Part shown: one piece after another, positions 6,823 through 22,438 of the stretch
How positions within the stretch are numbered: the stretch's first letter is position 1
How the letters are laid out: every line of letters starts with the position of its first letter
From: Actinomycetota bacterium
GTDB lineage: Bacteria; Actinomycetota; UBA4738; JBJMLN01
Length of the DNA stretch: 64,000 bases
Direction of reading: 5' to 3'
Assembly (NCBI GenBank): GCA_045805285.1
Contig: JBJMLN010000135.1
Coordinates: 5,656-69,655, forward strand
The notes under the pieces: model-generated
What the model saw: only the letters and a program-made list of their open reading frames with translations
Database searches by the model: none
What the model was told of the DNA's origin: nothing
Translations under genes and position numbers: made by a program

Positions 6823-6837
6823 CGGAAGCTCTGGGTC

Positions 6838-7063: not shown

Positions 7064-7079
7064 ATGTGACGTACGTCAC
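7064..7079. promoter_or_regulatory. CRP/GlxR-type site TGTGAcgtacgTCACc (TGTGA-N6-TCACA, 9/10 match) containing the perfect 14-bp palindrome GTGACGTACGTCAC. It sits in the divergent region between the 40-aa ORF and the sulfite-oxidase-like gene.
   Basis: Seen directly. Flanked by further GTCAC half-sites at ~7030 and ~7052. Confidence 0.4.
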
Positions 7080-7157
7080 CCCGGAACGTCCCCAGCGGGC
7101 GATCCCTCGCGGCCACGGTTGAGGCTCGCCCGCGGTCTGGCGCATCATCCTCGAAGG

Positions 7158-8237: not shown

Positions 8238-8294
8238 GTTCGGGAAGTCCCAGCTGTCACCCTCCGGGAGGGGTGGGGGCATAGGGTTGAGGCG

Positions 8295-9149: not shown

Positions 9150-9156
9150 GACGCTC

Positions 9157-9996: not shown

Positions 9997-10005
9997 CGCG
10001 GACGA

Positions 10006-10404
10006 TCAATACTGCCCGTACGTTCGGTCGACCGTGAACTCGTAGATCAGGCGCTCCTCGCGGACCATCGCCGCGAGGTACTCCTCCACGTCGTCGGGCT
10101 CCCCGGCCAGCGCGCGGTAGAGCTCGAGGTTCTGCTCGGGCGCGTCGGGGCCGTCCAGGATCCGGACGTGCGACTCGATGCCCATCCACGCCTGCCAACG
10201 TCTCGGATCGAACACGAAGAGCGTCGCGCGCGGATCGCGACGGAGGTTCCGGGTGCGCACGCGGTTCCGCGTCCCGGAGCTCCAGACGACGTCACCCATC
10301 AGCCCGATGCCGATGCGGGCGACGTGCGGCGTTCCGTCGGCCTTGATCGTCGCGACGGCGGCGCTGTGATTGTGTTCGAGGAAGGCGCAGACCTTGTCGT
10401 CCAC
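10006..10404 (-). CDS. PPOX-class F420-dependent / pyridoxamine-5'-phosphate-oxidase-family protein.
   Basis: HSAAVATIKADGTPHVARIGIGLMGDVVWSSG and the C-terminal YEFTVDR are typical of the split-barrel PPOX family. Confidence 0.7.
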   Translation of the reverse strand: MDDKVCAFLEHNHSAAVATIKADGTPHVARIGIGLMGDVVWSSGTRNRVRTRNLRRDPRATLFVFDPRRWQAWMGIESHVRILDGPDAPEQNLELYRALAGEPDDVEEYLAAMVREERLIYEFTVDRTYGQY

Positions 10405-10772: not shown

Positions 10773-10965
10773 GTTCTCCTCCTGAGGGGATGGTTGTTCA
10801 CGGGGTGTCGTTCCGCTTCGATGATAAACGACTGGGACGCAAAACGAACGCGAAGTGAATGCGCCGCGCGTTGGCTCTTCAGTCAGCTCTGCATACCGAG
10901 CGACGACATTCCGACCATCGCTACACTGCAGTCGTTCGTTCGCGACCGCATCTGTAGGAGGATCG

Positions 10966-12237
10966 ATGACGACCACGGGAGTTTCCGCGCAGCGAGATGC
11001 GGGGCCTCGAACGTGGTGGACGCGGCCGGGTCTCGAGATCGTCGACGGCCGCCTGCGCATCGCGGGCCGGGACGCGGAGGCCCTTGCGCGGCAACACGGA
11101 ACGCCGCTCTACGTCTACGAGCTCGGCATCATCGGCTCCAACGTGCGCGCGCTGCAGTCGGCGTTCGGGCGGATCGGCGTGACGGGGCGCGTGCGATACG
11201 CGCTCAAGGCGAACCGGGAACCGGAAATCCTGCGTTTCCTCCGCGGCTTAGCCTCCCCGGGAACGCCCGAGAGCGTCGGCATCGACGCCTGCTCTCCGGG
11301 AGAGGTTCTCTATGCGATCGAGCACGGTTGGAAGCCACACGAGATCTCCTTCACCGGCACGAACGTCTCCGAGCGCGATCTCGACGTCCTGCTTTCACAG
11401 CCGATCCTCATCAACGTCGATCTGCTGAGCCAGCTCGATCGCATCGGACGTCGCGCGCCGGGAGGCGCCGTCGGATTGCGATTGAACCCGCGGGCCGGCG
11501 CCGGCTGGAGTGGAGAGGGAGCCACCCTCTACAGCGGCACGAAGCCCGGGAAGTTCGGGATCTACGACGAGAACCTCGACGACGCCCTCGAGATCGCCCG
11601 ACGCCACGATCTCTCGATCGTCCGTGCACACGTCCACGTCGGCGACGGGTTCCTCACACGCGGGCTGCCCAAGTTCGAGGGCGCGATCGAGCGGCTCGCG
11701 GCGATGGTCCGTCGCCTGGTCGACGCCGGCTGTCCGATCGAGGAGATCAACACCGGCGGCGGGCTCGGGGTCCCGCTCCAGGACGGAGACGAGCCGCTGG
11801 ACGTCGACGCCTACGCGGAGGTCCTCGCGCGATACCTCGGGGACTTCGGCGTGACGATCGCGTGTGAGCCCGGCGACTTCATCGTCAAGCAGAGCGGGAC
11901 GCTCCTCGCCGAGATCGTGACGGTGGAGGACCGCCTCGGAACGACCTTCGTCGGCCTCGACGTCGGTTGGAACGTCGTGAGCGACCACTTCGTGTACAAG
12001 ATGCCGATCGAGCAGGTCCTCTGCCGCGCCGCCGACGCGCCGAGGACCGAGCGGCTGACGATGTCCGGCCACATCAACGAGGGGAACGACCTCTTCGCGG
12101 AGGACTATCCGTTCCCCCCGGTGAAGGAGGGCGATGTCGTTGCGATGATGAGCGTGGGCGGTTACAACCAGGCGATGGCGATGCCGCACTGTCTCCGGCC
12201 CGTTCCGCCCGCGATCGTTCTCCGCGATGCCGAATAG
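10966..12237 (+). CDS. PLP-dependent fold-III decarboxylase (diaminopimelate / ornithine / carboxynorspermidine decarboxylase family).
   Basis: Motifs YALKAN (Lys-PLP), HVHVGDG, EINTGGGLGVP and CEPGDFIV. ATG at 10966 preceded by GTAGGAGGA. Confidence 0.8.
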   Translation: MTTTGVSAQRDAGPRTWWTRPGLEIVDGRLRIAGRDAEALARQHGTPLYVYELGIIGSNVRALQSAFGRIGVTGRVRYALKANREPEILRFLRGLASPGTPESVGIDACSPGEVLYAIEHGWKPHEISFTGTNVSERDLDVLLSQPILINVDLLSQLDRIGRRAPGGAVGLRLNPRAGAGWSGEGATLYSGTKPGKFGIYDENLDDALEIARRHDLSIVRAHVHVGDGFLTRGLPKFEGAIERLAAMVRRLVDAGCPIEEINTGGGLGVPLQDGDEPLDVDAYAEVLARYLGDFGVTIACEPGDFIVKQSGTLLAEIVTVEDRLGTTFVGLDVGWNVVSDHFVYKMPIEQVLCRAADAPRTERLTMSGHINEGNDLFAEDYPFPPVKEGDVVAMMSVGGYNQAMAMPHCLRPVPPAIVLRDAE

Positions 12238-13837
12238 GAAACGCCGCTACGACGCCGTCATCGTCGGCGGCGGCCACAACGGCCTCGTCGCCGGCTTCTA
12301 TCTCGCGCGCGCCGGGGTGAAGACGCTGATCCTGGAGCGCCGCGACATCCTCGGCGGCGCCTGCAACACGGAGGAGTTCGCGCCCGGGTTTCGTGCGTCC
12401 ACGGGCGCGTACGTGCTGAGCATGCTGCGGCGCTCCATCTGGAAGGACATGGACCTCGTCCGCCGCGGCATCCGCGTCGACGAGGCGGGTCCGTCGCTCA
12501 ACCTGTTTCCGGACGGGGCGCGGTTCATGCTCCACGATGAGGCGGACCGCGCGGTGGAGGAGATCGCACGGTACTCCCGCCGCGACGCGCGCGAGTTCCC
12601 GGCGTTCGAAGCCGACCTCGCGCGCCTCGCGCAGGGCGTCACCCCTGCGTTCGACTGGACGCCCCCGGACCCGCGGGTGCGGAAGCTCGGCGACCTCCGC
12701 GGTCTCGCGCGCTACGGGTGGCAGGGAGCGAAGCACCGCGGAGACATCCAGGACGCCACGTTCCTGTTCACGACCTCGGTGAGTCAGTATCTGGGCGAGC
12801 GCTTCGAGTCAGAACACGTGAAGGCCGCGCTCGGCTGGCACGCGATCAACGACAGCCTCTCCGGTCCGTCGACGCAGGGGACCGCGTACGTCGTCCTCCA
12901 CGACCACGCGGCGGAGGACGCGGGCGGAGGCGTGCGCCAGTGGGGCTTCGTCCGCGGAGGGATGGGAGAGCTCACCGCTCGCATGGCCGATGCGGCGCGC
13001 GAGGCGGGGGCGGAGATCCGCACGGGCGCGGAGGTCGAGCAGATCACGCTCCGCCGCGGCCGCGCGAGCGGTGTGGTGTTGAACGGCGGCGAGGAGATCC
13101 GCTCGAAGATCGTGCTCTCCAACGCGGACCCAAAGCGGACGTTCCTCGGACTCGTGGAACCGGGCGCGCTCCCGGAGCGGTTCCTGGGCCAGATCCGCGC
13201 GTACCGCTCTGAGGGCACCAGTATGAAGATCAATCTCGGCGTCGCGGAACTTCCGATGGTGCGCGGACTGCCGTCGAACGGCGCGCAGGAGTATCACCGC
13301 GGCATCATGGAGATCAACTCCACGCTCGCCGACATGGACTGGGACCAGGCGCAGGCGCGTCGCGGCCGCTCGGCGGAGAACTCCCACATCGAGGTCTGCT
13401 TCCCGACGGTGCACGACCCGTCGCTCGCGCCGGAGGGAAAGCACGTCGTGACGATCGACGTGAACTCCCAGCCGTACTCGCTCCGCGAGGGCTCGTGGGA
13501 CGAGCGGAAGGACGCCATCGCGGACCGGGCGATCGGCCAGCTCGCGGAGTACTTCCCGAACCTGCCGGGCGCGATCCTCCACCGGCAGGTGCTGTCGCCG
13601 CTCGATCTCGAACGGCTGATCGGCCTGACGGGAGGGCACGCGCTCCACGGCGACATGTCGCCGGATCAGCTGCTGTTCATGCGGCCGGTGCGCGGATACG
13701 GCGACTACCGCACGCCGGTGCCGAACCTCTATCTCTGCGGAGCGGGAACGCACCCGGGAGGCGGCGTCACCGGCGCGAACGGAAGGAACTGCGTCCGGGA
13801 GGTGCTGAAGGACCGGCGCCGCCGCCGCTGGCGCTGA
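12227..13837 (+). CDS. FAD-dependent oxidoreductase of the phytoene-desaturase / CrtI amine-oxidase-like family. Its start overlaps the decarboxylase stop by 11 nt.
   Basis: YDAVIVGGGHNGLVAGFYLARAG is a Rossmann GxGxxG motif. The C-terminal CGAGTHPGGGVTGANGRN is typical of the CrtI family. Confidence 0.8.
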   Translation: MPNRKRRYDAVIVGGGHNGLVAGFYLARAGVKTLILERRDILGGACNTEEFAPGFRASTGAYVLSMLRRSIWKDMDLVRRGIRVDEAGPSLNLFPDGARFMLHDEADRAVEEIARYSRRDAREFPAFEADLARLAQGVTPAFDWTPPDPRVRKLGDLRGLARYGWQGAKHRGDIQDATFLFTTSVSQYLGERFESEHVKAALGWHAINDSLSGPSTQGTAYVVLHDHAAEDAGGGVRQWGFVRGGMGELTARMADAAREAGAEIRTGAEVEQITLRRGRASGVVLNGGEEIRSKIVLSNADPKRTFLGLVEPGALPERFLGQIRAYRSEGTSMKINLGVAELPMVRGLPSNGAQEYHRGIMEINSTLADMDWDQAQARRGRSAENSHIEVCFPTVHDPSLAPEGKHVVTIDVNSQPYSLREGSWDERKDAIADRAIGQLAEYFPNLPGAILHRQVLSPLDLERLIGLTGGHALHGDMSPDQLLFMRPVRGYGDYRTPVPNLYLCGAGTHPGGGVTGANGRNCVREVLKDRRRRRWR

Positions 13838-13843
13838 TCTCTA

Positions 13844-14641
13844 CTACAGCGGCGCGTCCGGAACCGGCGGGGCGTCGTCCCGGTCCCACCAGTCGCCCGT
13901 GAGCTCTCCGCCGTCGACGAGGATCGTCTCTCCGGTCACGAACGCGGCGTCCTCGGAAGCGAGGAACAGCACGACGTTCGCCTGATCCTGGGGTTTTCCG
14001 ACCCGCCTCAGCGGAACGCGTTCGAGGTACGCGCGCTCGCGATCCAGGTCCTCTCCCGAGGCGCTGGCCTGCTCCTCGGGCGTGAGCGTCTCCCCGGGCG
14101 CGATGCAGTTCGCGCGGATGCCGAGGTGGCCGAGCTCGTGTGCGAAGGCGCGGGTGAGCATCACGAGCGCGGCCTTGGAGGCGTTGTACGGCGCCTCGGG
14201 CGACTCCACGCGGAAGGCATTCGCCGACGCGACGTTCACGAACGCGCCGCCGCCGTGCTCGATCATGTGCGCGGCGGCTCGCTGCATCGCGAAGAACGGC
14301 GCTCGCGCATTGACGGAGAAGGCGGCGTCGAACGTCTCCGGTGAGACCTCGAGGATCGCGCCGTCCGGCATGACGCCCGCGTTGTTGACGAGCACGTCGA
14401 GGCCGCCGAGCTCGCGGATGCCGTCGTCGACCACGCGCATGGCTTCGTCCACCGACGACAGATCGGCGACGCCGGTGCGCAGCCGATCGCTGCCGAGCTC
14501 GCTCTCGAGCCGCTCGAGACCAGCGGCGTTTCGATCGACGGCGTAGACGTGCGCGCCCTCACCGAGGAACGCCGTGACGATCGCGCGACCGATGCCGCGC
14601 GCCGCTCCCGTGACGATCACGCGTGTGCCTTCGAACCGCAT
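13844..14641 (-). CDS. SDR-family NAD(P)-dependent oxidoreductase.
   Basis: TGAARGIGRA (TGxxxGxG), NNAG, and the YNASKAA catalytic Y-x3-K. Confidence 0.85.
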   Translation of the reverse strand: MRFEGTRVIVTGAARGIGRAIVTAFLGEGAHVYAVDRNAAGLERLESELGSDRLRTGVADLSSVDEAMRVVDDGIRELGGLDVLVNNAGVMPDGAILEVSPETFDAAFSVNARAPFFAMQRAAAHMIEHGGGAFVNVASANAFRVESPEAPYNASKAALVMLTRAFAHELGHLGIRANCIAPGETLTPEEQASASGEDLDRERAYLERVPLRRVGKPQDQANVVLFLASEDAAFVTGETILVDGGELTGDWWDRDDAPPVPDAPL

Positions 14642-14693: not shown

Positions 14694-15491
14694 ATGTCGT
14701 CAAGCGCGGATCTTCCGGTTGCGGATCGCTGGTTCGAGACGGCCGAGGCCGGAAGCGGCGTCACGATGATCACCGAGCCGCACCTGCATCCCTACATCCA
14801 GTCCAACCTCTGGTTGGTCCGCGGAAGCGACCGCGACCTGCTCGTTGACGCTGGGAACGGGCTCGCGAGCCTCAAGGGCGATCTCCCGGAGCTCTTCGAG
14901 CCCGGCCGCGAGATCGTCGCCGTCGTTACGCACGGACACGCCGACCACATGGGCGGGCTGCACGAGTTCGACGAGCGCGTGTGCCATCGCCAGGAGGCCG
15001 GAGACGTCGAGCGTCCGCCGATCTCCTCGCTGCTCGACGCCGACACCTACCCCGAGGAGGAGCGCGCGGCGGCGATCGAGAGCGGGTATGGAGAGCTGCC
15101 GCGTTTCCTGCTCGATGCGCTGCCGTCGCCGGACTTCGATCCGCAGTCCTTCGCGATGGCGCCGACCGCGCCTACGCGGACCGTGCAGGAGGGCGACGTG
15201 ATCGATCTCGGCGACCGATCGTTCGACGTGCTGCATCTCCCGGGGCACACTCCGGGCAGCCTCGCGCTCTGGGAGGCGGAGACGGCGACGCTGTATTCGG
15301 GAGACACGATCTACGCGGGAGAGCCGCTCCTCGACGAGCTTCCGGAATCGAACATCGCCGACTACGTGGACTCGATGCGCCGGCTCCGATCGCTGCCCGT
15401 CAGGATCGTCCACGCCGGCCACGATCCGAGCTTCGGCCGCGAGGAGCTCATCCGCATCGTGGACGCCTACATCGCGAGACGAGAGCAGTAG
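14694..15491 (+). CDS. MBL-fold metallo-hydrolase.
   Basis: THGHADHMGG (HxHxDH), a later HLPGHTPGS, and HAGHD. Confidence 0.85.
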   Translation: MSSSADLPVADRWFETAEAGSGVTMITEPHLHPYIQSNLWLVRGSDRDLLVDAGNGLASLKGDLPELFEPGREIVAVVTHGHADHMGGLHEFDERVCHRQEAGDVERPPISSLLDADTYPEEERAAAIESGYGELPRFLLDALPSPDFDPQSFAMAPTAPTRTVQEGDVIDLGDRSFDVLHLPGHTPGSLALWEAETATLYSGDTIYAGEPLLDELPESNIADYVDSMRRLRSLPVRIVHAGHDPSFGREELIRIVDAYIARREQ

Positions 15492-16922
15492 CTATGTACC
15501 CGGTATGAACACCTTCAGGAGCTGACCGCCCTCTCCGACAGCGGTGTTCGGGCGAAGGCTCGGACCGGGCTGCGGAACGTTCGTGTCGTGCGCCTGCACG
15601 TCCATCAGCCACCAGCCCTTGCCGAAGAAGCTCGACGCGTCGATGACTCCGCTCGACTCCCAGTCTCCGCGGCCCTCGCGCCGGATCACGCTCTCGGTCG
15701 GTTGAGTGCGGGCAACCGTTCGGAGCGTTCCGTCGCCAAGGTCGTAGACGAGCACGCGGTCGAATCCCGACTTCGGGTAGTTCCGATCCTCCTGGATGAC
15801 GAGCGCGTGTTTGGAGACGGCGAGGTTGTCCGGGTTGAACATGTCGTCTCCGTGGCTCCCGTCGAGCACCACCTGCAGCGACGCGCGCGTCGGATGCTCC
15901 GGATCGAGCTGCACCCGGTAGATGCGACCGCGGAACGTCTCCCGGTCCGCCGCGCCGGTGTCGGAGAAGTACACCGTGCCGGGATGCATGGGGTCTGCCT
16001 CCGCGTCCTCGATCCGGACGAAGTCGAACGCGCCCTTGCGCTGCGACGCTGCCTCGAGCGAATCGATGCTCGTGTTGCGGCCCTGGGAGATGCGGACGAG
16101 CTTGCCGTCGAGCGTCTGTCCCTTGGAGATGTGGTCGGGGGAGGGGTTGGCGTCCGTGTGACCGGTCGGAACGAACACGCGGAGCACGCCCTGCCCGCGG
16201 ATCGCTCCCTTGAACGTCGGCGCCGTGTACGCGTAGAGCTGCGAGTGACCGGCGCTGCCGTCCTCGGAGAGGAAGAAGGTCGCTTTCGAGAGGCCCTTGA
16301 CCGGCACGACGTTCTCGTGCAGCAGCATCCCGAACTGCGGCGTTTCCATCCAACGGCCGGTCTCCGCATTGAGCGCGATTGACATGCCGCCGTGACCCTG
16401 CTTGCACTCCTCCCCGGTGAAGTACCACGGCTGTCCTCCGAGGATCCGGAGCGTGCTCGAGCAGAAGCACGTGAAGCTCTCCGTTCCGTCGACGGGATAG
16501 CTCCCGCGGAGCACCGAGCCGTCGTTGTTGAGGGTGAGATGCGAGATCCGCGAGTTCGACGGATCGCCGTCGACCTGCTCGAGCTCGTGGTTCATAAACA
16601 ACTGGATCCGTGCCTTCGAGCTCCGATACGCGCCGAGGCCGTCGGGGATCCCGGTCATCTCATATCCGCCGACGACGTCGCCGGTCGTCAGTAGCGGCTC
16701 GACCCGGACGCCGTTCACGAGCGGAACGACGTACGGGCGACGCGAGGTGAGGAAACCGGCCGGCCTGCCGCCCGGGACGTCGACCGATCCTGCGAACGCT
16801 CCGGACGCTGTCAACAGGCGATCGCGAGCGCGAGTGTGATGGAACGGCGCATATGAAGCTCCCCCTTCTGCATCTCGAGCATCCGTCGAGCCCGAACGCA
16901 CAGCATCGGGGATGCGACGCAT
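15492..16922 (-). CDS. PhoX-like / DUF839-family secreted protein (predicted phosphatase beta-propeller), possibly exported by the Tat pathway.
   Basis: 476-aa track ORF. Motifs GIPDGLGAY, FVRIEDAEADP and IYRVQLDP are characteristic of COG3211/PhoX. An N-terminal RDRLLTASGAFAGS segment resembles a Tat signal. The family call is from recall only. Confidence 0.5.
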   Translation of the reverse strand: MRRIPDAVRSGSTDARDAEGGASYAPFHHTRARDRLLTASGAFAGSVDVPGGRPAGFLTSRRPYVVPLVNGVRVEPLLTTGDVVGGYEMTGIPDGLGAYRSSKARIQLFMNHELEQVDGDPSNSRISHLTLNNDGSVLRGSYPVDGTESFTCFCSSTLRILGGQPWYFTGEECKQGHGGMSIALNAETGRWMETPQFGMLLHENVVPVKGLSKATFFLSEDGSAGHSQLYAYTAPTFKGAIRGQGVLRVFVPTGHTDANPSPDHISKGQTLDGKLVRISQGRNTSIDSLEAASQRKGAFDFVRIEDAEADPMHPGTVYFSDTGAADRETFRGRIYRVQLDPEHPTRASLQVVLDGSHGDDMFNPDNLAVSKHALVIQEDRNYPKSGFDRVLVYDLGDGTLRTVARTQPTESVIRREGRGDWESSGVIDASSFFGKGWWLMDVQAHDTNVPQPGPSLRPNTAVGEGGQLLKVFIPGT

Positions 16923-16945
16923 CGTCGTCGAATCGAACGCGGATA

Positions 16946-16958
16946 GTCAACGGTTGAC
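16946..16958. promoter_or_regulatory. Perfect 13-bp palindrome GTCAACgGTTGAC, a candidate operator in the divergent region between the PhoX-like gene and the ABC operon.
   Basis: Seen directly. Lies 89 nt upstream of the SBP start. Confidence 0.3.
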
Positions 16959-17046
16959 AATCGACCGACCGGCGGATACGGTCGCGCACCGAGTGGCGAG
17001 GCACCGACCCGACGCTCCGAGCCGCTCCGACGCAGGGGGAACGCTG

Positions 17047-18165
17047 ATGAAGCGCCGTGTCCTCGCCCGAGTCGCAGCCGCGTCCGTCGTCCTCGTGATC
17101 GCCGCAGCGTGTTCGAACGGTGGGTCGAGCGCGCCGGAGGCCAGCGGAGGCGGTTCCTCGGCGTCGACGAACCCCGCAGACATCACGGGAACGATCCGGT
17201 TGCTCTCCTACAGCGACGGGTTCGACCCGAAGTACCTCGCGAGCTTCCATCAGGAGTACCCCAACATCAAGCTCGAGACGGCGAGCATGGATTCCAACGA
17301 GGGCGCGATCGCGAAGATCCAGGCCGGGTTCCAGGTCGACGTGATCAACAGCTGCGTCGACGAGGCGACGCTGGAGATGGTCCAGAAGGGCCTCTACATG
17401 CCGCTCGATCCGGCGAAGCTCACGAACTGGCCGGATCTGTTCCCGACGATGAAGGAGCTGCCCGGTGTGCAGGTCGACGGGAAGATCTACATGGTCCCGG
17501 TCGACGCCGGCACTGCCGGTGTGCTCTACAACGCGGACGTCGTGAACCCCCCGCCTGACTCCTGGACCGATCTGTTCAACCCGGAGTGGCAGGGCCGCGT
17601 CGGCATGGAGGACAACGCGACGACCGCGCTGATGATCGGGGCGCTCGCTACCGGCATCACGGATCCGCTCCACATGACGGGCACGCAGCTCGACTCCGTG
17701 AAGAGCTACCTGATCGCCCACAAGGACCAGTTCCGAACGTTCTGGCACGGCGACGCCGAGGTGAAGTCGCTGTTCAAGTCCGGGGAGATCGTCATCTCCT
17801 CCGGCTACCCGGACAACGCGAAGTTCCTCCAGAAGGAGGGCGTGAACGTGAAGTTCGCCGTCGCCAAGGAGGGCCAGTTCCTCTGGGCGTGCGGCTATGG
17901 GATCTCTCCGCAGATCGCACCGGAGAACCTTCCCGCAGCGTACGCGCTGCTGAACTGGTACTCGAGCGTGAAGGCGGAGATGTTCGAGGCGAGCTACTGG
18001 AACTACCAGATCGCGAACGAGAAGGTCCTCGACGTCGCGCCGAAGAGCCTGATCGAGGAGGCGGGGCTCGACGCGCCGTTCCACATGGAGAATGCGATCC
18101 CCGCGAGCCCGCCCGAGAACCGGGATGCCTGGGTCGCCGCGTGGACCGAGGTGAAGGCGTCCTAG
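17047..18165 (+). CDS. ABC transporter substrate-binding lipoprotein, PotD/PotF (polyamine/amine) family.
   Basis: MKRRVLARVAAASVVLVIAAACSNGG gives a lipobox (IAAAC). PotD-like fold segments are present. Confidence 0.75.
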   Translation: MKRRVLARVAAASVVLVIAAACSNGGSSAPEASGGGSSASTNPADITGTIRLLSYSDGFDPKYLASFHQEYPNIKLETASMDSNEGAIAKIQAGFQVDVINSCVDEATLEMVQKGLYMPLDPAKLTNWPDLFPTMKELPGVQVDGKIYMVPVDAGTAGVLYNADVVNPPPDSWTDLFNPEWQGRVGMEDNATTALMIGALATGITDPLHMTGTQLDSVKSYLIAHKDQFRTFWHGDAEVKSLFKSGEIVISSGYPDNAKFLQKEGVNVKFAVAKEGQFLWACGYGISPQIAPENLPAAYALLNWYSSVKAEMFEASYWNYQIANEKVLDVAPKSLIEEAGLDAPFHMENAIPASPPENRDAWVAAWTEVKAS

Positions 18166-18166
18166 C

Positions 18167-19051
18167 GTGGCCGATCAGGTCATACGGCCGGCGGGCCTCG
18201 GGATCGATCTGCCCTCGCCCGCGCAGGTCCGCACGCGAGCGCTCGTCAACACCACGCTGTGGAGAGCCTTCCTCGCGTTCGTGTTCCTCGCGCTCTTCGG
18301 TCCGCTCCTGATCCTGCTGCTGTTCTCGTTCAACGACTCCTCGATCCTCGCGTTCCCGCTCGCCGGGTTCACGACGCACTGGTACTCCCTCGCGTGGCAG
18401 GACACGCTGCTGCGACAGTCGCTCGTCAACTCCACGACGGTGGCGCTCGTCGTTACGCCGTTCTGTCTGGTGCTGGGAACGCTAACGGCGTTCGGTCTGA
18501 CCCGGTTCCGCTTCCGCGGCCGTGGAGCCGTCGGCGGCCTGGTCGGCGCACCGCTGATCCTGCCGTGGCTGATCATCGGCATCGCCGCGCTGATGGCGTA
18601 CGGACGGCTCCACGTCGCCTTGAACCTGCGGACGGTGATCGCGACGCAGACGATCTGCACGTTCCCGCTGGTCACCGCCATCATCGCGGCGCAGCTTTTC
18701 CGCTTCGAGCGGGAGCAGGAGGAGGCGGCGATCGATCTCGGCTGCTCGCGTCTCCAGGTGCTGCGCCACATCATCCTGCCGCACATCGCCTCGGCGCTCG
18801 CGGCCTCGGCGATCTTCGCGTTCACATGGTCGTTCAACAACTTCGAGATCAGCTTCTTCACGATCGGGTTCCAGCAGACGTTTCCGATCTGGGTGTACTC
18901 CTCCGTACGGAACCCCGACCACACCGCGGTCGTCAACGCGATCTCCGTGGTGATCTCCGTCGTGCAGGTCGCGCTGATCTACCTCGCGGTGCGGCTCCTT
19001 CGACGCGGGAGCGACGACGAGACCGGCGTCATCGTGGCGGTGGCAGCCTGA
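18167..19051 (+). CDS. ABC transporter permease (PotC/PotB-like).
   Basis: Six transmembrane segments. EAA-like loop AIDLGCSRLQVLRHIILP. GTG start 1 nt after the SBP stop. Confidence 0.8.
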   Translation: MADQVIRPAGLGIDLPSPAQVRTRALVNTTLWRAFLAFVFLALFGPLLILLLFSFNDSSILAFPLAGFTTHWYSLAWQDTLLRQSLVNSTTVALVVTPFCLVLGTLTAFGLTRFRFRGRGAVGGLVGAPLILPWLIIGIAALMAYGRLHVALNLRTVIATQTICTFPLVTAIIAAQLFRFEREQEEAAIDLGCSRLQVLRHIILPHIASALAASAIFAFTWSFNNFEISFFTIGFQQTFPIWVYSSVRNPDHTAVVNAISVVISVVQVALIYLAVRLLRRGSDDETGVIVAVAA

Positions 19052-19923
19052 TGGCGGCGGTCTCGGAGGCCGTCGCAGCCGAGCGCCCTCGTCGCCGTTC
19101 CGGACGCGGAGTGTTCGGGATCCTGTTCATCCCGGTCGTGCTGCTGATCGTGCTGTTCCTCGCGCCGATGCTGATCATGGTCGTGATGAGCATCGTCCGG
19201 TTCCCGCCGAACACCTCGAGCGGCTATACGTTGTCGCACTACCAGCAGGTGCTCACCGACCCGATCAACCTCAAGGTCGCGTGGACCACGATGTTCATCG
19301 GCACGACCGCGATGCTGATCATGCTGGCGATCGGACTTCCGCTCGCGTACTACATGGCGTTCAAGGCCGGAAAGCTGGAGCTGTTCCTGCTCCTTGCGCT
19401 CGTTCTCGCCGACGAGCTTGCGCCCGTCGTGAAGGTCTACGCGTGGCAGGTGATCCTCGGCAAGGACGGTCTGGTCAACTGGTTGATCCCGGGGCCGCCG
19501 GTGAACTGGCTGCTGTTCAGCCGGTTCGCGGTCATCGTGACGCTCGCCGCGTCGTACATCACGTACACGACGATCCCGATCTACGCCGCGATGAAGGCGA
19601 TCGACAAACGGATGTTCGAGGCGGCCGTCGATCTCGGCGCCGGCTGGTGGACGCAGGCGCGCCGGATCCTGATCCCGCTCGCCGCGCCCGGCATCTTCAT
19701 CGCGCTGATCCTCGTGTACCTGCCGATGCTCACCGACTTCGTCACCGCGGACATCGTCGGCGGCACCGGCTCCTACATGATGGGGCAGCGCGTCCGCGAT
19801 CTGATCCTCCTGCAGGGAGATTGGGGCGCCGGCGCGGCATTGAACTTCCTGCTGCTCGCGATCACGCTCGTCTTCTCCTGGGTGGCGTACCGCTTCGCGA
19901 AGCTGAATCGGATCGAGGCATGA
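19051..19923 (+). CDS. ABC transporter permease (second membrane subunit).
   Basis: AVDLGAGWWTQARRILIPLAAPG EAA motif. Its ATG overlaps the upstream stop. Confidence 0.8.
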   Translation: MAAVSEAVAAERPRRRSGRGVFGILFIPVVLLIVLFLAPMLIMVVMSIVRFPPNTSSGYTLSHYQQVLTDPINLKVAWTTMFIGTTAMLIMLAIGLPLAYYMAFKAGKLELFLLLALVLADELAPVVKVYAWQVILGKDGLVNWLIPGPPVNWLLFSRFAVIVTLAASYITYTTIPIYAAMKAIDKRMFEAAVDLGAGWWTQARRILIPLAAPGIFIALILVYLPMLTDFVTADIVGGTGSYMMGQRVRDLILLQGDWGAGAALNFLLLAITLVFSWVAYRFAKLNRIEA

Positions 19924-21098
19924 GCGAGAACGGGTCACGGCTCGACGGAGACCGCACGGGGGAGATCCTCGTCCAGTCGGCCACGAAGCGCTTCGGAGAC
20001 GTCACCGCCGTCGACGACGTCTCCATCACGATCCCGGGCGGAGAGTTCTTCTCCATGCTCGGGCCTTCCGGCTGCGGAAAGACGACGACGCTCCGCCTGA
20101 TCGCGGGGTTCGAGCAACCGGACGAGGGGAAGGTCCTGCTCCAGGGCCAGGACGTGACGCACGTTCCGCCCTCGAAACGGAACGTGAACATGGTGTTCCA
20201 GGCCTACGCCCTGTTCCCGCACATGACCGTCGCGGAGAACATCGCGTTCGGCCCGCGCATCAAGAGGCTCGGCTCGGAGGAGATCCGCTCGCGCACGCAG
20301 GAGATCCTCCGCACCGTCCAGCTGGAGGCGATGGCGGACCGGCGCCCCGGACAGCTCTCGGGCGGCCAGCAGCAGCGGGTCGCGCTCGCGCGGGCCTTGG
20401 TGAACCGTCCGGCCGCGCTGCTGCTCGACGAGCCGCTCGGCGCGCTCGACCTGAAGCTCCGCAAGGAGATGCAGCTCGAGCTGAAGGAGCTCCAGTCGCG
20501 TACGAGAACCACGTTCGTCTACGTCACGCACGACCAGGAGGAAGCGATGACGATGTCGGACCGGATCGCCGTGATGAACGGCGGCGTGGTCGAGCAGCTC
20601 GCGACGCCGCGGGAGCTCTACCAGCGTCCCGCGAGCGCCTTCGTCGCGGGCTTCATCGGCACGTCGAACCTGATCTCGGTGCGCGCCGACCGGCGCGACG
20701 ACGGGCTGGTGGTCATGGACCTGGGACCGGAGGAGCGGATCCTCGCTCCGGATCCCGGCGGCTTCGACGAGGCGATCCAGATCACCGTCCGGCCGGAGTG
20801 GATCAAGCTCGGCGCCTCCGCAGACACGCGCGCGTCACAGGTGAGCGCGACCGTCTCGGACGTCGTCTACCTCGGCTCGCTCACCCAGATGATCGTGCAG
20901 CTGAAAACCGGGGAGCGCCTCACCGTCCACCGCCTGAACGACGAGGTCGGCGCGATCGATCCGCGGCCCGGAGACGTGGTCACGCTCCGCTGGGCCGCGG
21001 AGCACAGCTTCGTGATCGGCTCCGACGCGACCAATCCGGCTATCGCGCCCGGCACCGATCGCAAGGAAGGCATCGAGAGGGAGGGACTACCCACATGA
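19920..21098 (+). CDS. ABC transporter ATP-binding protein (PotA-like, with a C-terminal TOBE domain).
   Basis: Walker A GPSGCGKTT, LSGGQQQRVALARAL signature, Walker B LLLDEPLGALD. Confidence 0.9.
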   Translation: MSENGSRLDGDRTGEILVQSATKRFGDVTAVDDVSITIPGGEFFSMLGPSGCGKTTTLRLIAGFEQPDEGKVLLQGQDVTHVPPSKRNVNMVFQAYALFPHMTVAENIAFGPRIKRLGSEEIRSRTQEILRTVQLEAMADRRPGQLSGGQQQRVALARALVNRPAALLLDEPLGALDLKLRKEMQLELKELQSRTRTTFVYVTHDQEEAMTMSDRIAVMNGGVVEQLATPRELYQRPASAFVAGFIGTSNLISVRADRRDDGLVVMDLGPEERILAPDPGGFDEAIQITVRPEWIKLGASADTRASQVSATVSDVVYLGSLTQMIVQLKTGERLTVHRLNDEVGAIDPRPGDVVTLRWAAEHSFVIGSDATNPAIAPGTDRKEGIEREGLPT

Positions 21099-22438
21099 GT
21101 GACGTCGCCGGCAACGAATCCGAGCACCTCTCCGCCGAGGAGATCGTCGAGCTCTCCTTGCGCCACACGCTCTACGACTGGCAGGCGCAGGACGGGCTGA
21201 AGCCGATCCCGGTCGACTCCGCCAGCGGCGCGGAGTTTTTCACGACCGACGGCAAGCGCTATCTCGACTTCAACAGCCAGCTGATGGGCGTCAACGTCGG
21301 CCATGGCGACAAGCGCGTCGTCGACGCGATCGCGCGCCAGGCGGAGAAACTCCCGTACATCTCGCCGTTCATGGCGCACGAGCCACGCGCGCTGCTCGGG
21401 CGGGAGCTCGCGAAGATCCTTCCCGGTGACATCGACAAGGTGTTCTTCACGCTGGGCGGCTCGGAGGCGAACGAAACCGCGATCAAGATCGCCAAGCTCG
21501 TCACCGGGCGGCAGAAGATCCTCGCGCGGTATCGCTCGTACCACGGCGCGACGAGCGGAACGATGACGCTGACGGGAGATCCCCGCCGCTGGGCGAACGA
21601 GCCCGGCATCCCGGGCGTCGTGCACGTCCTCGATCCGTACCACGGCCCGCAGCGCGAGGTGGACTCCGCGGAGGAGTCGCTGCGCTATCTCCGCGAGACG
21701 ATCGAGCTCGAGGGACCGGCAACGATCGCGGCGTTCTTCCTGGAGCCGGTGACCGGGACGAACGGCATCCTGATCCCGCCGGATGGCTATCTCGAAGGAG
21801 TGCGAGAGCTCTGCGACGAGTTCGGCATCCTGATGGTCGCCGACGAGGTGATGTCGGGCTTCGGCCGCACCGGAGAGTGGTTCGCCGTCGACCACTGGGG
21901 TGTTGTTCCCGACATGCTCACGATGGCGAAGGGGCTGACGAGCTCGTACGTGCCGCTCGGCGCCGTCGGGATGCGGCCGCATGTCGCGGATCACTTCCGG
22001 CAGAACGTGTTCTGGGGAGGGCTGACGTACAACTCCCACCCGCTCGCGTGTGCGGCGGCGCTCGCGAACCTCCAGATCTACGAGGAGGACGACCTGATCG
22101 CGAACGCGAAGCGCCTCGGCGGGGTCCTCGCGGAGCATCACGAGCGGATGCTCGCGAACCATGCCTCCGTCGGGCTCGTCCGGAACATCGGACTGTTCGG
22201 CATCCTGGAGCTCGTCCGCGACCGCTCCACGATGGAGCCGCTCGCGCCGTTCGGCGGCACCAGCGAAGAGATGAAACAGATCGCCGCGTACCTCGACGAC
22301 CACGGGCTCTACACGTTCATCCGCTGGCACTCCGTGATGACGAACCCGCCGCTGATGATCTCCGAGGAGCAGCTCGCGGAGGGCTTCGACATCATCGACG
22401 GCGCGCTCTCGCTAGCCGACCGCGCGGTGCGGAGCTGA
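21095..22438 (+). CDS. Class-III (omega) aminotransferase, PLP-dependent.
   Basis: FTLGGSEANETAIKIAK, DEVMSGFGRTGEWFA and TMAKGLTSSY (PLP lysine). ATGA overlap with the ATPase gene. Confidence 0.85.
   Translation: MSDVAGNESEHLSAEEIVELSLRHTLYDWQAQDGLKPIPVDSASGAEFFTTDGKRYLDFNSQLMGVNVGHGDKRVVDAIARQAEKLPYISPFMAHEPRALLGRELAKILPGDIDKVFFTLGGSEANETAIKIAKLVTGRQKILARYRSYHGATSGTMTLTGDPRRWANEPGIPGVVHVLDPYHGPQREVDSAEESLRYLRETIELEGPATIAAFFLEPVTGTNGILIPPDGYLEGVRELCDEFGILMVADEVMSGFGRTGEWFAVDHWGVVPDMLTMAKGLTSSYVPLGAVGMRPHVADHFRQNVFWGGLTYNSHPLACAAALANLQIYEEDDLIANAKRLGGVLAEHHERMLANHASVGLVRNIGLFGILELVRDRSTMEPLAPFGGTSEEMKQIAAYLDDHGLYTFIRWHSVMTNPPLMISEEQLAEGFDIIDGALSLADRAVRS

What the first reader, a model, noticed from the sequence alone, without database searches (positions are those of the whole stretch)
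10966..13837. Translationally coupled fold-III PLP decarboxylase plus CrtI-like flavin oxidoreductase: a two-gene unit of unknown pathway
The decarboxylase has every DAP / ornithine / carboxynorspermidine decarboxylase motif: YALKAN, HVHVGDG, GGGLG, CEPGD. The downstream gene is not a lysine-pathway enzyme. It is a 536-aa CrtI / amine-oxidase-family FAD protein, and its ATG lies 11 nt inside the decarboxylase 3' end. Decarboxylase plus flavin amine oxidase is the logic of polyamine or amine-derived natural-product steps, for example carboxy(nor)spermidine routes or aminoacetone/amine oxidation. This is unlikely to be housekeeping lysA. The neighbours on the opposite strand, an SDR and an MBL hydrolase, may belong to the same unit.
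Basis: inference. Interest (0 to 1): 0.5.

Follow-up and report, generated by a model that had tools for sequence, protein, structure and literature searches.

The report
LysA-like decarboxylase coupled to PYROXD2-like flavoenzyme
Two overlapping genes encode a lysine-pathway look-alike decarboxylase that has lost the residues needed to bind its usual substrate, and a bacterial relative of the poorly understood human flavoprotein PYROXD2; together they probably help break down a positively charged amino acid or amine, and are not part of lysine synthesis.

Summary
Both genes are real and overlap by 11 nt: decarboxylase (DC) 10966-12237, flavoprotein (FAD) 12227-13837.

The DC is a fold-III PLP enzyme but not a bona fide LysA.
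- It scores below the LysA equivalog cutoff.
- Both arginines that hold the distal carboxylate of DAP are Asp (EPGR to EPGD; Asp340 on the specificity helix).
- The loop Cys is Asn (CESGD to INEGND).
- It falls in a separate "Asn-loop" clade (97% NJ bootstrap). Distant members of that clade are fused or adjacent to SET or SAM methyltransferases, or sit in PKS/NRPS clusters. One member coexists with a canonical lysA.

The FAD protein is not a carotenoid desaturase. It is 38% identical over its full length to human PYROXD2 (E 5e-115).

The pairing recurs but is often broken.
- FAD directly follows DC in 6 of 64 related loci and lies within about 8 kb in 14 of 56.
- Nine of 16 adjacent pairs overlap.
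- DC's usual partner is the MBL hydrolase, with a Cc2672-like arginine carboxypeptidase.
- FAD's usual partners are a class-III aminotransferase and a PotABCD-type importer.

Best reading (inferred): a modular unit for using a cationic, possibly N-alkylated, amino acid or amine. The substrate is unknown.

The parts
10956..10962 (+). Shine-Dalgarno-like AGGAGGA, 3 nt before the DC start codon
   Evidence: Read directly from the sequence.
10966..12237 (+). DC: 423-aa fold-III PLP decarboxylase of the 'Asn-loop' (INE) clade. Key residues are K81 (PLP lysine), H222/H224, G264-G268, E301, D304 (in place of Arg), D340 (in place of Arg), N371-E372 (in place of Cys-Glu), Y400 and H408-C409.
   Evidence: AF2 model pLDDT 92.6, with DAPDC and D-Orn/D-Lys decarboxylase as best structural matches.
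12227..12237 (+). 11-nt overlap of the FAD start codon with the DC 3' end. No SD-like purine run lies upstream, so termination-reinitiation coupling is likely (inferred).
   Evidence: The same -11 geometry occurs in L081 and L082. Overlaps of -8, -14, -1 and -4 nt occur in L083, L029, L007, L023 and L135.
12227..13837 (+). FAD: 536-aa PYROXD2-family NAD(P)/FAD-dependent oxidoreductase (CrtI/amine-oxidase superfamily)
   Evidence: 38% identity and E 5e-115 over the full length to human PYROXD2.
13844..14641 (-). Classical SDR (TGAARGIG, NNAG, YNASK), convergent with FAD across a 6-nt gap
   Evidence: Present with FAD in L081-L083. An SDR at 56-63% identity recurs in FAD clusters L029, L098, L106, L107 and L153.
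14694..15491 (+). MBL-fold hydrolase with an intact HxHxDH site. It is the most frequent direct partner of DC in relatives.
   Evidence: It directly follows DC in 27 of 64 loci, often with overlapping stop and start codons.
15492..16922 (-). Conserved 476-aa protein with no family match. Its belonging to the unit is uncertain.
   Evidence: No Pfam, NCBIfam or PDB match. Orthologues at 49-54% identity lie near DC in L004, L013, L031 and L035.
16912..21098 (+). PotDCBA-type ABC importer: SBP 16912-18165, permeases 18167-19051 and 19051-19923, ATPase 19920-21098. Probable extended neighbourhood.
   Evidence: the ATPase passes TIGR01187 potA, 394.6 vs 355.6. A PotD/PotC-like SBP and permease sit upstream of FAD in many metagenome loci.
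21095..22438 (+). Class-III omega-aminotransferase whose start overlaps the ATPase stop by 4 nt. It is only 31% identical to the aminotransferase that usually follows FAD elsewhere.
   Evidence: (NF004718, 523 vs 472).
22441..23322 (+). 2-hydroxy-3-oxopropionate (tartronate semialdehyde) reductase-type beta-hydroxyacid dehydrogenase, the last gene of the importer operon
   Evidence: TIGR01505, 368.1 vs 340.75.

Best explanation
DC and FAD are a co-translated pair inside a modular gene neighbourhood for using a cationic amino acid or amine. They are not lysine-biosynthesis genes. DC keeps the whole PLP machinery of a fold-III decarboxylase. Its distal pocket, however, has changed from carboxylate-binding (two Arg in LysA) to acidic (Asp304, Asp340, with Glu372 kept). 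It should therefore take an amino acid whose side chain ends in a positive group. Candidates are lysine, ornithine or arginine, or an N-alkylated derivative. It would release the corresponding amine. The PYROXD2-family flavoprotein, translated from the same mRNA, would then oxidise a C-N bond of that amine or of a related N-alkyl amine, by dealkylation or deamination. The MBL hydrolase, the SDR, a PotABCD-type importer, an omega-aminotransferase and a hydroxyacid dehydrogenase would supply or finish the carbon skeleton. Shown here: the gene anatomy, the residue changes, the clade separation, the PYROXD2 homology and the neighbourhood statistics. Inferred: the substrate class, the order of the steps and a catabolic direction.
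For: Anatomy and overlap.
Not LysA:
- TIGR01048 scores 219.9 against a cutoff of 297.9.
- In TmDAPDC, Arg249 (in EPGR) and Arg285 bind the distal carboxylate and Glu315 binds the distal amine (PMC8277567). Here these positions are D304, D340 and E372.
- On the 3-10 'specificity helix', DAPDC has Arg where the basic-substrate enzymes L/ODC, ADC and CASDC have Asp (PMC7857480). In this family the position is D or E in 23 of 25 aligned members. Residues 340-343 form a short helix in a pLDDT 92.6 model.
- In the NJ tree, 58 Asn-loop sequences plus 2 degenerate ones separate from 42 EPGR/Arg/Cys LysA-type sequences in 58 of 60 bootstraps.
- Rhizobium lusitanum 629 carries both an Asn-loop gene and a canonical EPGR/GPLCESGD gene.
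Pointers to a basic substrate: the amidohydrolase that accompanies DC-MBL in 32 of 56 loci is closest to the L-arginine carboxypeptidase Cc2672 (3MTW, E 2.7e-95).
FAD:
- 38% identity and E 5e-115 to human PYROXD2, against 72 bits in fragments to CrtI.
- Bacterial homologues sit with class-III aminotransferases, polyamine-type ABC importers and GcvT-like aminomethyltransferases.
- The human PYROXD2 locus is the strongest mQTL for N6-methyl- and N6,N6-dimethyl-lysine (PMC9730628).
Linkage:
- FAD lies within about 8 kb of DC in 14 of 56 loci, in several gene orders.
- Nine of 16 adjacent pairs overlap, with different geometries in different lineages.
- Four of five contexts retrieved for relatives whose DC is at least 78% identical keep DC-FAD: P0001, P0003 and P0008 and L140. 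P0009 does not.
Against: - No enzyme of the Asn-loop clade or of the PYROXD2 family has a demonstrated activity, so the substrate class rests on residue logic and context only.
- The pairing is a minority arrangement, directly adjacent in 6 of 64 loci. A relative with a 78%-identical DC has DC-MBL and no FAD within 10 kb.
- The window lacks the Cc2672-like amidohydrolase, the M20 deacylase and the aminotransferase type that usually follows FAD.
- GcvT-like and Rieske genes are absent from the window and from all actinobacterial and metagenome loci. The N-demethylation idea is therefore extrapolated from homologues at about 39% identity.
- With the loop Cys missing, DC might not be a simple decarboxylase.
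- Distant clade members lie in biosynthetic (methyltransferase, PKS, NRPS) contexts rather than catabolic ones.
Confidence: 0.4

Rival explanations
1. The adjacency is fortuitous. DC-MBL is one functional unit and FAD-SDR is another. The FAD-SDR pair was inserted between DC and MBL in this lineage, and DC and FAD share no pathway.
For: The commonest arrangement is DC immediately followed by MBL, in 27 of 64 loci. The contig of P0009, whose DC is 78% identical, has DC-MBL and otherwise the same flanks as the window (Moco enzyme and LLM upstream; MobA-like, XdhC and HbpS-like downstream), but lacks FAD-SDR and the importer block. FAD's own commonest neighbours are a class-III aminotransferase and an ABC importer, not DC.
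Against: FAD lies within about 8 kb of DC in a quarter of loci, across Actinomycetota and Thermoleophilia lineages (loci with FAD listed, organisms), and in at least four gene orders (DC-FAD; DC-MBL-amidohydrolase-FAD; DC-FAD-MBL; DC-DC-FAD). That is far more than one unrelated gene family should reach. Stop/start overlaps of -1, -4, -8, -11 and -14 nt arose in separate lineages.
Confidence: 0.2
2. The pair is biosynthetic. It makes a modified, for example N-methylated, diamine or polyamine, or a small specialised metabolite, as the proteobacterial relatives of DC seem to do.
For: Asn-loop relatives are fused to SET domains, class-I methyltransferases or ADH+SET. Others lie next to a SET methyltransferase (Sphingomonas paeninsulae), a methyltransferase plus PKS (Rhizobium lusitanum), or NRPS/PKS genes (Eleftheria terrae). 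PMC7857480 argues that DAPDC-clade paralogues that are neither DAPDC nor D-ODC are probably specialised-metabolite enzymes.
Against: Those relatives are only 36-42% identical and fall in other sub-branches. No methyltransferase, PKS, NRPS or NIS synthetase was found among the window genes scanned between about 1.3 and 27.6 kb, or among the recurrent neighbour families of the DC loci that were scanned. The recurrent partners are hydrolases, an importer with a substrate-binding protein, aminotransferases and dehydrogenases, which is a catabolic pattern.
Confidence: 0.2
3. DC is the organism's housekeeping meso-DAP decarboxylase, merely divergent, and FAD is an unrelated downstream gene.
For: Source annotations call family members 'diaminopimelate decarboxylase'. 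The best sequence and structure matches among solved structures are DAPDCs. The gene sits in a chromosomal block (GalU, MoeA, MoaC) conserved across two phyla. No second lysA lies in the 64-kb window, though that is uninformative at this scale.
Against: Both carboxylate-binding Arg residues and the loop Cys are replaced in essentially every member. All Asn-loop proteins tested are below the TIGR01048 cutoff. The clade is separate at 97% bootstrap. It coexists with a canonical LysA-type gene in R. lusitanum. A tandem duplicate occurs in L005. No lysine or threonine biosynthesis genes were identified among its neighbours.
Confidence: 0.05
4. DC is a carboxyspermidine or carboxynorspermidine decarboxylase working in a polyamine route.
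For: An acidic distal pocket would also suit carboxyspermidine; CASDC has Asp on the specificity helix (PMC7857480). A PotABCD-type transporter lies nearby.
Against: There is no meaningful similarity to NspC. TIGR01047 does not reach E 0.001 for the window protein and scores 25-67 bits against a 409-bit cutoff for clade relatives. A putative CANSDC structure scores 27.6 bits. No CANSDH gene was seen among the neighbour families scanned.
Confidence: 0.05

Closest known systems
meso-Diaminopimelate decarboxylase LysA (e.g. E. coli 1KNW/1KO0, A. aeolicus 2P3E, T. maritima 2YXX)
   Same: Same two-domain fold-III architecture. Best sequence hit 1KNW, E 3.6e-38. Best structural hit 2P3E, TM 0.81/0.86. 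Shared residues: PLP lysine, HxH, GGGLG, the Glu of EPG, the Glu of the second-subunit loop, and the Tyr of G(A/G)Y.
   Different: Both Arg residues that bind the DAP distal carboxylate are Asp. The loop Cys is Asn. The Ser of HxHxGS is Asp. A new invariant His-Cys appears near the C-terminus. The protein is below the TIGR01048 cutoff and in a separate clade.
D-ornithine/D-lysine decarboxylase DokD/DOKDC (Salmonella; 6N2H, 8D88, 9CPZ)
   Same: A DAPDC-clade paralogue that acts on basic rather than dicarboxylic substrates. Structural match TM 0.84. It shows that this clade can switch to cationic substrates.
   Different: Only 68.5 bits against a 700-bit cutoff for NF052544. DOKDC keeps the catalytic Cys387. 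A C387S variant was deposited with PMP and 4-guanidinobutanal, according to the title of entry 9CPZ. The window enzyme naturally lacks that Cys.
Human PYROXD2 (NP_116098.2, Q8N2H3)
   Same: 38% identity over the full length, E 5e-115. Same length class, and the same GxGHNGL Rossmann start and C-terminal GAGTHPGGGV motif.
   Different: Mitochondrial eukaryotic protein. Its catalytic function is unknown (PMC8777681 abstract). It is linked genetically to methyl-lysine levels (PMC9730628). No decarboxylase partner is known for it.
Carotenoid enzymes CrtI (4DGK) and CrtO ketolase
   Same: Same flavoprotein superfamily (PF01593; TIGR02734 and NF045689 give hits).
   Different: All scores are below cutoff: 136.8 vs 238.1 and 271.6 vs 1000. 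CrtI aligns only in three fragments, 72 bits in total. No carotenoid-pathway gene was identified among the neighbours scanned.
Alphaproteobacterial operons TetR | PYROXD2-like - PYROXD2-like - GcvT-like aminomethyltransferase (+ class-III aminotransferase, polyamine-type ABC importer, Rieske oxygenases); uncharacterised
   Same: FAD homologue at about 39% identity. Association with a class-III aminotransferase and a polyamine-type importer.
   Different: These operons have two FAD paralogues and a folate-type aminomethyltransferase and no decarboxylase. None of those extra genes occurs in the window or in the actinobacterial loci.
E. coli route for N-epsilon-carboxymethyl-lysine: SpeC decarboxylation, then PatA/GabT/IlvE transamination (bioRxiv 10.64898/2026.06.11.731642 and 10.64898/2026.06.15.732455; abstracts only)
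   Same: Same logic: an N-epsilon-modified basic amino acid is first decarboxylated, and the amine is then processed by class-III aminotransferases.
   Different: The decarboxylase there is not this kind of LysA-like paralogue. It works by promiscuity rather than as a dedicated cluster, and no flavoenzyme is involved.

Membership tests
Fold-III (alanine-racemase-fold) PLP decarboxylases (Orn/DAP/Arg decarboxylase family) | N-terminal barrel domain PF02784 plus C-terminal sheet domain PF00278 | tested here: met
   E 3.1e-32 and 4.4e-10. AF2 model pLDDT 92.6, TM about 0.8 to DAPDC and DOKDC structures.
Fold-III (alanine-racemase-fold) PLP decarboxylases (Orn/DAP/Arg decarboxylase family) | PLP-binding residues: Schiff-base Lys, HxH, Gly-rich phosphate loop, Glu of EPG, Tyr of G(A/G)Y | tested here: met
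   K81, H222/H224, G264-G268, E301 and Y400 are invariant or nearly invariant in the family. Roles are taken from TmDAPDC (PMC8277567).
meso-DAP decarboxylase LysA (EC 4.1.1.20) | Score at or above the curated equivalog cutoff of TIGR01048 | tested here: not met
   219.9 vs 297.9 bits. Seven intact Asn-loop relatives score 208-242, and two further relatives (a TetR fusion and an ADH-SET fusion) score 125 and 158.
meso-DAP decarboxylase LysA (EC 4.1.1.20) | Two Arg residues that bind the distal carboxylate of DAP (EPGR, and Arg on the specificity helix) | tested here: not met
   D304 and D340. The first position is D or E in all 25 aligned family members, and the second in 23 of 25. Roles from PMC8277567 and PMC7857480.
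meso-DAP decarboxylase LysA (EC 4.1.1.20) | Cys-Glu of the CE(S/T)GD loop from the second subunit | tested here: not met
   The loop reads INEGND. Cys is replaced by Asn371 and Glu372 is kept.
meso-DAP decarboxylase LysA (EC 4.1.1.20) | Clusters with bona fide LysA sequences | tested here: not met
   The Asn-loop clade separates from 42 LysA-type representatives in 58 of 60 NJ bootstraps. This is a distance tree only.
meso-DAP decarboxylase LysA (EC 4.1.1.20) | Sole LysA of the genome; decarboxylates meso-DAP | not testable with these tools
   Only 64 kb of the genome is available and exact look-ups found no source genome. One attempt to link canonical LysAs to the same contigs failed.
Carboxy(nor)spermidine decarboxylase (NspC/CANSDC) | Match to TIGR01047, and a neighbouring CANSDH gene | tested here: not met
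   No hit at E <= 0.001 for the window protein. A putative CANSDC structure, 3MT1, scores 27.6 bits. No CANSDH-like gene among the neighbour families scanned.
D-Orn/D-Lys decarboxylase DokD | Match to NF052544 at the cutoff; catalytic Cys387 | tested here: not met
   68.5 vs 700 bits. The equivalent Cys is Asn.
BtrK-type carrier-protein-dependent decarboxylase | Close similarity to BtrK and an adjacent small carrier protein | tested here: not met
   BtrK 7RU7 scores 67.6 bits, half the LysA score. No ACP-like gene lies next to DC in the window.
Phytoene desaturase CrtI / ketolase CrtO | Score at or above the TIGR02734 or NF045689 cutoffs; carotenoid genes nearby | tested here: not met
   136.8 vs 238.1 and 271.6 vs 1000 bits. 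No carotenoid-pathway gene identified among the window neighbours scanned.
PYROXD2 family (carotenoid/retinoid-oxidoreductase-like flavoproteins of unknown function) | Full-length collinear homology to PYROXD2 | tested here: met
   38% identity, 554 aligned columns, E 5e-115. The comparison sequence was verified as human PYROXD2, NP_116098.2. A reciprocal best-hit test was not done.
Flavin amine oxidases (MAO/PAO type) | Full-length similarity to characterised amine oxidases | tested here: not met
   PF01593 is matched at superfamily level (74.8 bits). Solved amine oxidases align only over the N-terminal Rossmann part, residues about 7-90.

The most novel reading that the evidence does not exclude
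The Asn-loop decarboxylase and the PYROXD2-like flavoenzyme act in sequence on an N-epsilon-alkylated (for example methylated) lysine-type compound. The flavoenzyme would be an N-alkyl-amine oxidoreductase or demethylase. If so, this bacterial gene pair would give the first direct biochemical handle on what PYROXD2 enzymes do. A variant of the idea: because the catalytic-loop Cys is naturally absent, the decarboxylase may release an aldehyde by decarboxylation-dependent deamination rather than an amine. The deposited C387S variant of D-Orn/D-Lys decarboxylase with bound PMP and 4-guanidinobutanal is a precedent (title of entry 9CPZ).
Probability: 0.15. Interest if true: 0.75.

Novelty: new variant of a known kind. 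Interest (0 to 1): 0.5.

Why it matters
Hundreds of genes in soil Actinomycetota and Chloroflexota genomes are labelled 'diaminopimelate decarboxylase' yet lack the residues that bind DAP. These labels can mislead reconstructions of lysine biosynthesis. They also hide a large, uncharacterised branch of fold-III PLP enzymes with a rebuilt catalytic loop.

The partner gene belongs to the PYROXD2 family. Its human member is reported to cause an infantile mitochondrial disorder (PMC8777681) and is the strongest genetic determinant of circulating methyl-lysines (PMC9730628), but it has no known reaction. Two bacterial contexts turn that open question into concrete enzyme assays:
- a decarboxylase for cationic amino acids, found here;
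- aminotransferase, GcvT-like aminomethyltransferase and polyamine-type importer, found in Alphaproteobacteria.

Tried and rejected
- Exact look-ups of the window DC and FAD proteins found no source genome.
- I tried to test whether genomes with this gene also have a canonical LysA. The method was to search with a LysA-type representative (P0330) and match contig lengths. The hits were Planctomycetota-type LysAs, so the test failed and used the last protein search. One cultured case, Rhizobium lusitanum 629, was found instead through the plasmid collection.
- The afdb50 fold library was not available. The FAD AF2 model was poor (pLDDT 57.6) and was not used. PYROXD2 homology was shown by sequence instead.
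- The promoter and terminator scan gave nothing above shuffles.
- No riboswitch or other Rfam family lies upstream of DC.
- I first counted the window aminotransferase (21095-22438) as the orthologue of the one that follows FAD elsewhere. This was rejected because it is 31% identical and belongs to a different NCBIfam subfamily.
- I considered the 476-aa ORF (15492-16922) to be a PhoX-like protein. The similarity is collinear but not significant (E 0.19).
- I looked for GcvT-like and Rieske genes in the window and in all 164 actinobacterial and metagenome loci and found none.
- A first NJ run produced invalid distances. It was repeated with a cap and gave the same topology.

Full report
**1. 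What is in the sequence**

The window is about 68% G+C. A GC3 frame analysis singles out two consecutive + strand genes at the reported place.

The first gene ends at the TAG at 12235-12237. Its most plausible start is the ATG at 10966, three bases after AGGAGGA. That gives 423 aa, and family conservation begins near residue 14. The second gene starts at the ATG at 12227 and ends at 13837 (536 aa). This ATG is the only start codon between the upstream in-frame stop and the Rossmann motif YDAVIVGGG. The 11-nt overlap is therefore real.

No purine-rich ribosome-binding site precedes the second start (read). Coupling by termination-reinitiation is the likely mode; this is inference.

Two statements need correcting.
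- CEPGD is not the family motif; it is a departure from EPGR.
- The MBL hydrolase (14694-15491) is on the + strand. Only the SDR (13844-14641) is on the opposite strand.

**2. The decarboxylase is a fold-III PLP enzyme but not a LysA**

Pfam finds both domains of the Orn/DAP/Arg decarboxylase family. An AlphaFold model built on a 52-sequence alignment is confident (pLDDT 92.6). [quoted passage not shown] The best sequence match among solved structures is E. coli LysA (E 3.6e-38, about 30% identity).

Against the curated LysA equivalog TIGR01048 it scores 219.9 bits, where the cutoff is 297.9. No other curated decarboxylase family comes close: DokD 68.5 vs 700, exosortase-associated 122 vs 478, and no hit for NspC.

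Residue comparison explains why. [quoted passage not shown] Glu315 of the other subunit holds the distal amine (PMC8277567). The second Arg lies on the 3-10 'specificity helix'. At that position DAPDC has Arg, whereas the ornithine/lysine, arginine and carboxyspermidine decarboxylases have Asp (PMC7857480).

In the window protein these positions are Asp304, Asp340 and Glu372. The first is D or E in all 25 aligned family members and the second in 23 of 25. Residues 340-343 form a short helix in the model.

Other changes:
- The Cys of the CE(S/T)GD loop is Asn371 (HINEGND). From my own knowledge, this Cys is the counterpart of ODC Cys360, the C-alpha proton donor. By the PDB entry titles it also corresponds to Cys387 of DOKDC.
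- The Ser of HxHxGS is Asp.
- A new invariant His408-Cys409 replaces the LysA 'YN' near the C-terminus.

The PLP apparatus is intact (K81, H222/H224, GGGLG, E301, Y400). This is an active-looking enzyme whose distal pocket has changed from cationic to acidic.

**3. It belongs to a separate, large clade**

A full scan of 1.84 billion representative proteins gave 335 hits at E <= 1e-30. The full-length hits, aligned together with 25 family members and two LysA structure sequences, fall into two motif classes.
- 42 sequences have EPGR, the helix Arg and the loop Cys. This is the LysA type.
- 58 sequences have Asn in the loop. This group, called the Asn-loop or INE clade here, usually also has EPGD, no helix Arg, and 'HC(L/M)R' near the C-terminus.

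In a neighbour-joining tree, the Asn-loop sequences plus two degenerate TetR-fused relatives form one side of a split in 58 of 60 bootstraps. The window family with its nearest representatives is recovered in 60 of 60. This is a distance tree and should be repeated with maximum likelihood.

All Asn-loop representatives tested are below the LysA cutoff. Several are fused to SET domains, class-I SAM methyltransferases, ADH+SET or TetR domains.

Four members at 36-42% identity lie on plasmids of cultured Proteobacteria:
- overlapping a SET-domain methyltransferase gene in Sphingomonas paeninsulae;
- with a methyltransferase and a PKS in Rhizobium lusitanum;
- inside an NRPS/PKS cluster in Eleftheria terrae;
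- beside an aminotransferase in Rhodovulum sp. P5.

All four carry EPGD and GN(I/V)NEALD. Rhizobium lusitanum 629 also has an EPGR/GPLCESGD LysA-type gene on another replicon. The Asn-loop type therefore exists in addition to a true lysA in at least one organism. Whether that holds for the window's own genome could not be tested.

**4. The flavoprotein is a PYROXD2-family enzyme**

It matches PF01593 at superfamily level. It is far below the cutoffs for CrtI (136.8 vs 238.1) and CrtO (271.6 vs 1000). The only solved structure that aligns beyond the Rossmann fold is CrtI, in three fragments totalling 72 bits.

In contrast, it aligns end to end with human PYROXD2 at 38% identity, E 5e-115.

The reaction catalysed by PYROXD2 is unknown (PMC8777681 abstract). 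Its locus is the strongest and repeatedly replicated mQTL for N6-methyl- and N6,N6-dimethyl-lysine (PMC9730628).

Bacterial homologues at about 39% identity were examined on seven alphaproteobacterial plasmids.
- Four lie in the arrangement TetR | FAD - FAD - GcvT-like aminomethyltransferase, with a class-III aminotransferase and an ABC importer (annotated as polyamine-binding in one case) nearby. Rieske oxygenases accompany two of them.
- One sits between an aminotransferase, a PuuC-type aldehyde dehydrogenase and an acetylpolyamine aminohydrolase.
- Two were uninformative.

These contexts point to amine, possibly N-methyl-amine, catabolism rather than carotenoid chemistry. No GcvT-like or Rieske gene occurs in the window or in any actinobacterial or metagenome locus. 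This part is therefore extrapolation.

**5. How conserved is the pairing?**

DC-centred sample. The best 80 loci are all MAGs, of Actinomycetota (including Thermoleophilia), Chloroflexota (Limnocylindria, Anaerolineaceae) or unclassified bacteria.

| Loci considered | Feature | Count |
|---|---|---|
| 64 with at least 2.5 kb downstream of DC | next gene is MBL | 27 |
| same | next gene is the amidohydrolase | 7 |
| same | next gene is FAD | 6 |
| 56 with at least 7 kb downstream of DC | MBL present | 27 |
| same | amidohydrolase present | 32 |
| same | FAD present | 14 |

(All counts.) That amidohydrolase is near the cutoff of the 'Xaa-Pro dipeptidase' model NF051886 (489.7 vs 500). Its closest solved structure is the L-arginine carboxypeptidase Cc2672 (3MTW, E 2.7e-95).

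FAD-centred sample. Among metagenome loci with at least 55% identity to the window FAD:
- the gene immediately upstream is DC in 4 of 39 and the amidohydrolase in 6 of 39;
- the gene immediately downstream is a class-III aminotransferase in 15 of 40;
- PotD/PotC-like importer genes, an SMP-30/gluconolactonase-like gene, an SDR, a GrdB-like gene, an M20 deacylase and a PhoX-like gene recur.

Gene orders vary: DC-FAD; DC-FAD-MBL; DC-MBL-amidohydrolase-FAD; DC-DC-FAD. L029 has an eight-gene run, DC-FAD-M20-aminotransferase-SGL-SDR-MBL-GrdB-like.

Among 16 adjacent DC-FAD pairs, nine overlap, by -1, -4, -8, -11 or -14 nt in different lineages.

Five contexts were retrieved for close relatives:

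| Relative | DC identity | Arrangement |
|---|---|---|
| P0001 | 89% | same order as the window, same 11-nt overlap |
| L140 | 86% | DC-FAD, overlapping |
| P0003 | 85% | DC-FAD-SDR, with FAD split in two frames |
| P0008 | 79% | DC-FAD-GrdB-like |
| P0009 | 78% | DC-MBL, no FAD within 10 kb |

P0009 shares flanking genes with the window: a Moco enzyme and an LLM upstream, and MobA-like, XdhC and HbpS-like downstream. Relative to it, the window carries two extra blocks at this locus: FAD-SDR, and the 476-aa ORF followed by the importer operon.

The conclusion is that proximity of DC and FAD is far more frequent than chance and has been tightened into overlaps repeatedly. This supports a functional link. 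But the pair is neither obligate nor the core unit.

**6. The rest of the window neighbourhood**

Downstream of the MBL gene lie:
- a conserved 476-aa ORF with no family match;
- an operon with overlapping or abutting junctions: a PotD-like binding protein, PotC- and PotB-like permeases, and a PotA-type ATPase that passes TIGR01187;
- an omega-aminotransferase that passes NF004718;
- a tartronate-semialdehyde-reductase-type dehydrogenase that passes TIGR01505.

This aminotransferase is only 31% identical to the one that usually follows FAD. The window lacks the Cc2672-like amidohydrolase, M20, SGL, GrdB-like and PhoX-like genes. No riboswitch precedes DC.

**7. Most likely mechanism**

The following points are shown:
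- an intact PLP site with an acidic distal pocket;
- a partner hydrolase in relatives that resembles an arginine/lysine-releasing carboxypeptidase;
- a flavoprotein family tied, in other bacteria and in humans, to amine and methyl-lysine metabolism;
- an importer of the polyamine type, an aminotransferase and a hydroxyacid dehydrogenase.

The inference is that the neighbourhood takes up or liberates a cationic amino acid or amine. DC removes the alpha-carboxylate of a substrate whose side chain is basic and possibly N-alkylated. The PYROXD2-like enzyme oxidises a C-N bond of the product or of a related N-alkyl amine. Transamination and reduction then finish the skeleton.

E. coli offers a precedent for the logic. 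N-epsilon-carboxymethyl-lysine is first decarboxylated by SpeC and then transaminated by PatA, GabT or IlvE (abstracts listed).

I give this reading about 0.4. The main rivals:
- DC-MBL and FAD-SDR are independent units brought together by insertion (0.2).
- The pair is biosynthetic, like the methyltransferase- and PKS-linked relatives (0.2).
- Housekeeping LysA (0.05).
- A carboxy(nor)spermidine route (0.05).

**8. Comparison with known systems, and novelty**

The DC works like, and is related to, DAPDC and DOKDC, but it fails every LysA-specific test that could be run. The FAD protein is a PYROXD2-family member, not CrtI or CrtO. I found no paper describing the Asn-loop clade, its SET or methyltransferase fusions, or a PYROXD2-decarboxylase pairing. 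The library does not cover all journals.

I rate it a new variant of a known kind, with moderate interest (0.5). The anatomy is ordinary operon biology. However, the catalytic-loop change in a large mis-annotated clade and the link to PYROXD2 are both unexpected and testable.

Noticed in passing
P0249, P0264, P0278, P0298 (SET-DC); P0254, P0261 (DC-methyltransferase); P0355 (ADH-SET-DC); L168:8471-10209: Distant members of the Asn-loop decarboxylase clade are fused to SET domains, class-I SAM methyltransferases or ADH+SET. In Sphingomonas paeninsulae a separate SET-domain gene overlaps the decarboxylase gene by 4 nt. This suggests N-methylated amine products or substrates.
   Followed up: partly
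P0253, P0258: Two relatives fused to TetR-type domains have lost the EPG, loop and C-terminal motifs, yet they branch inside the window family's clade. They may be ligand-sensing regulators derived from the enzyme.
   Followed up: no
L170:6641-12284; L172:7998-12380; L173:6007-10398; L175:5986-10384: Alphaproteobacterial plasmids carry a recurrent, uncharacterised operon: two PYROXD2-like flavoproteins followed by a GcvT-like aminomethyltransferase, with a TetR regulator, a class-III aminotransferase, an ABC importer and sometimes Rieske oxygenases. It looks like an N-methyl-amine catabolic unit.
   Followed up: partly
window 15492-16922 (-): A 476-aa ORF with strong coding bias has no Pfam, NCBIfam or PDB match. 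Orthologues at 49-54% identity lie beside the aminotransferase in L004, L013, L031 and L035. It shows a weak collinear resemblance (E 0.19) to the PhoX-like protein that occupies a similar place in other loci.
   Followed up: partly
window 5450-5525 and 5505-10404: A tRNA-Ala gene sits exactly at the end of the conserved GalU...HAD-like block. The following 5 kb is found only in the window's close relatives and may be an insertion next to the tRNA. It holds two unannotated minus-strand ORFs, a sulfite-oxidase-like Moco enzyme, an RTX-repeat protein, an F420-type LLM and an F420 PPOX-class enzyme.
   Followed up: no
window 8295-9149 and 8815-9996: The mechanical ORF 8815-9996 (393 aa) overlaps the RTX-repeat gene. 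In relatives the LLM gene is about 280 aa, so its true start is probably near 9150.
   Followed up: no
L083:4394-5966: In the relative whose DC is 85% identical, the FAD gene is split into two frames (4394-5065 and 5061-5966). This is either a frameshifted pseudogene or an assembly error.
   Followed up: no
L005:8001-10526: Two Asn-loop-family decarboxylase genes lie in tandem (61% and 57% identity to the window DC), directly followed by the FAD gene.
   Followed up: no
L148:2977-5608; L151:6348-8965; L152:2551-5077: More distant FAD homologues (48-50% identity) are immediately preceded by a sulfite-oxidase-like Moco gene that is 36-38% identical to the one at window 7014-8237.
   Followed up: no
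L004:11252-13624 (-); L101:438-2744; L104:1549-3846: A 790-aa fusion of an APH-type kinase domain with a class-III aminotransferase-fold domain recurs near DC or directly upstream of FAD. From my own knowledge, this domain pair resembles hydroxylysine-kinase plus phospho-lyase systems.
   Followed up: no
L165:8688-8942; L166:8667-8933: In two proteobacterial plasmids a small ORF of about 85 aa containing 'IDCRGL' overlaps the start of the Asn-loop decarboxylase gene. By eye it looks TusA-like, but this was not tested.
   Followed up: no
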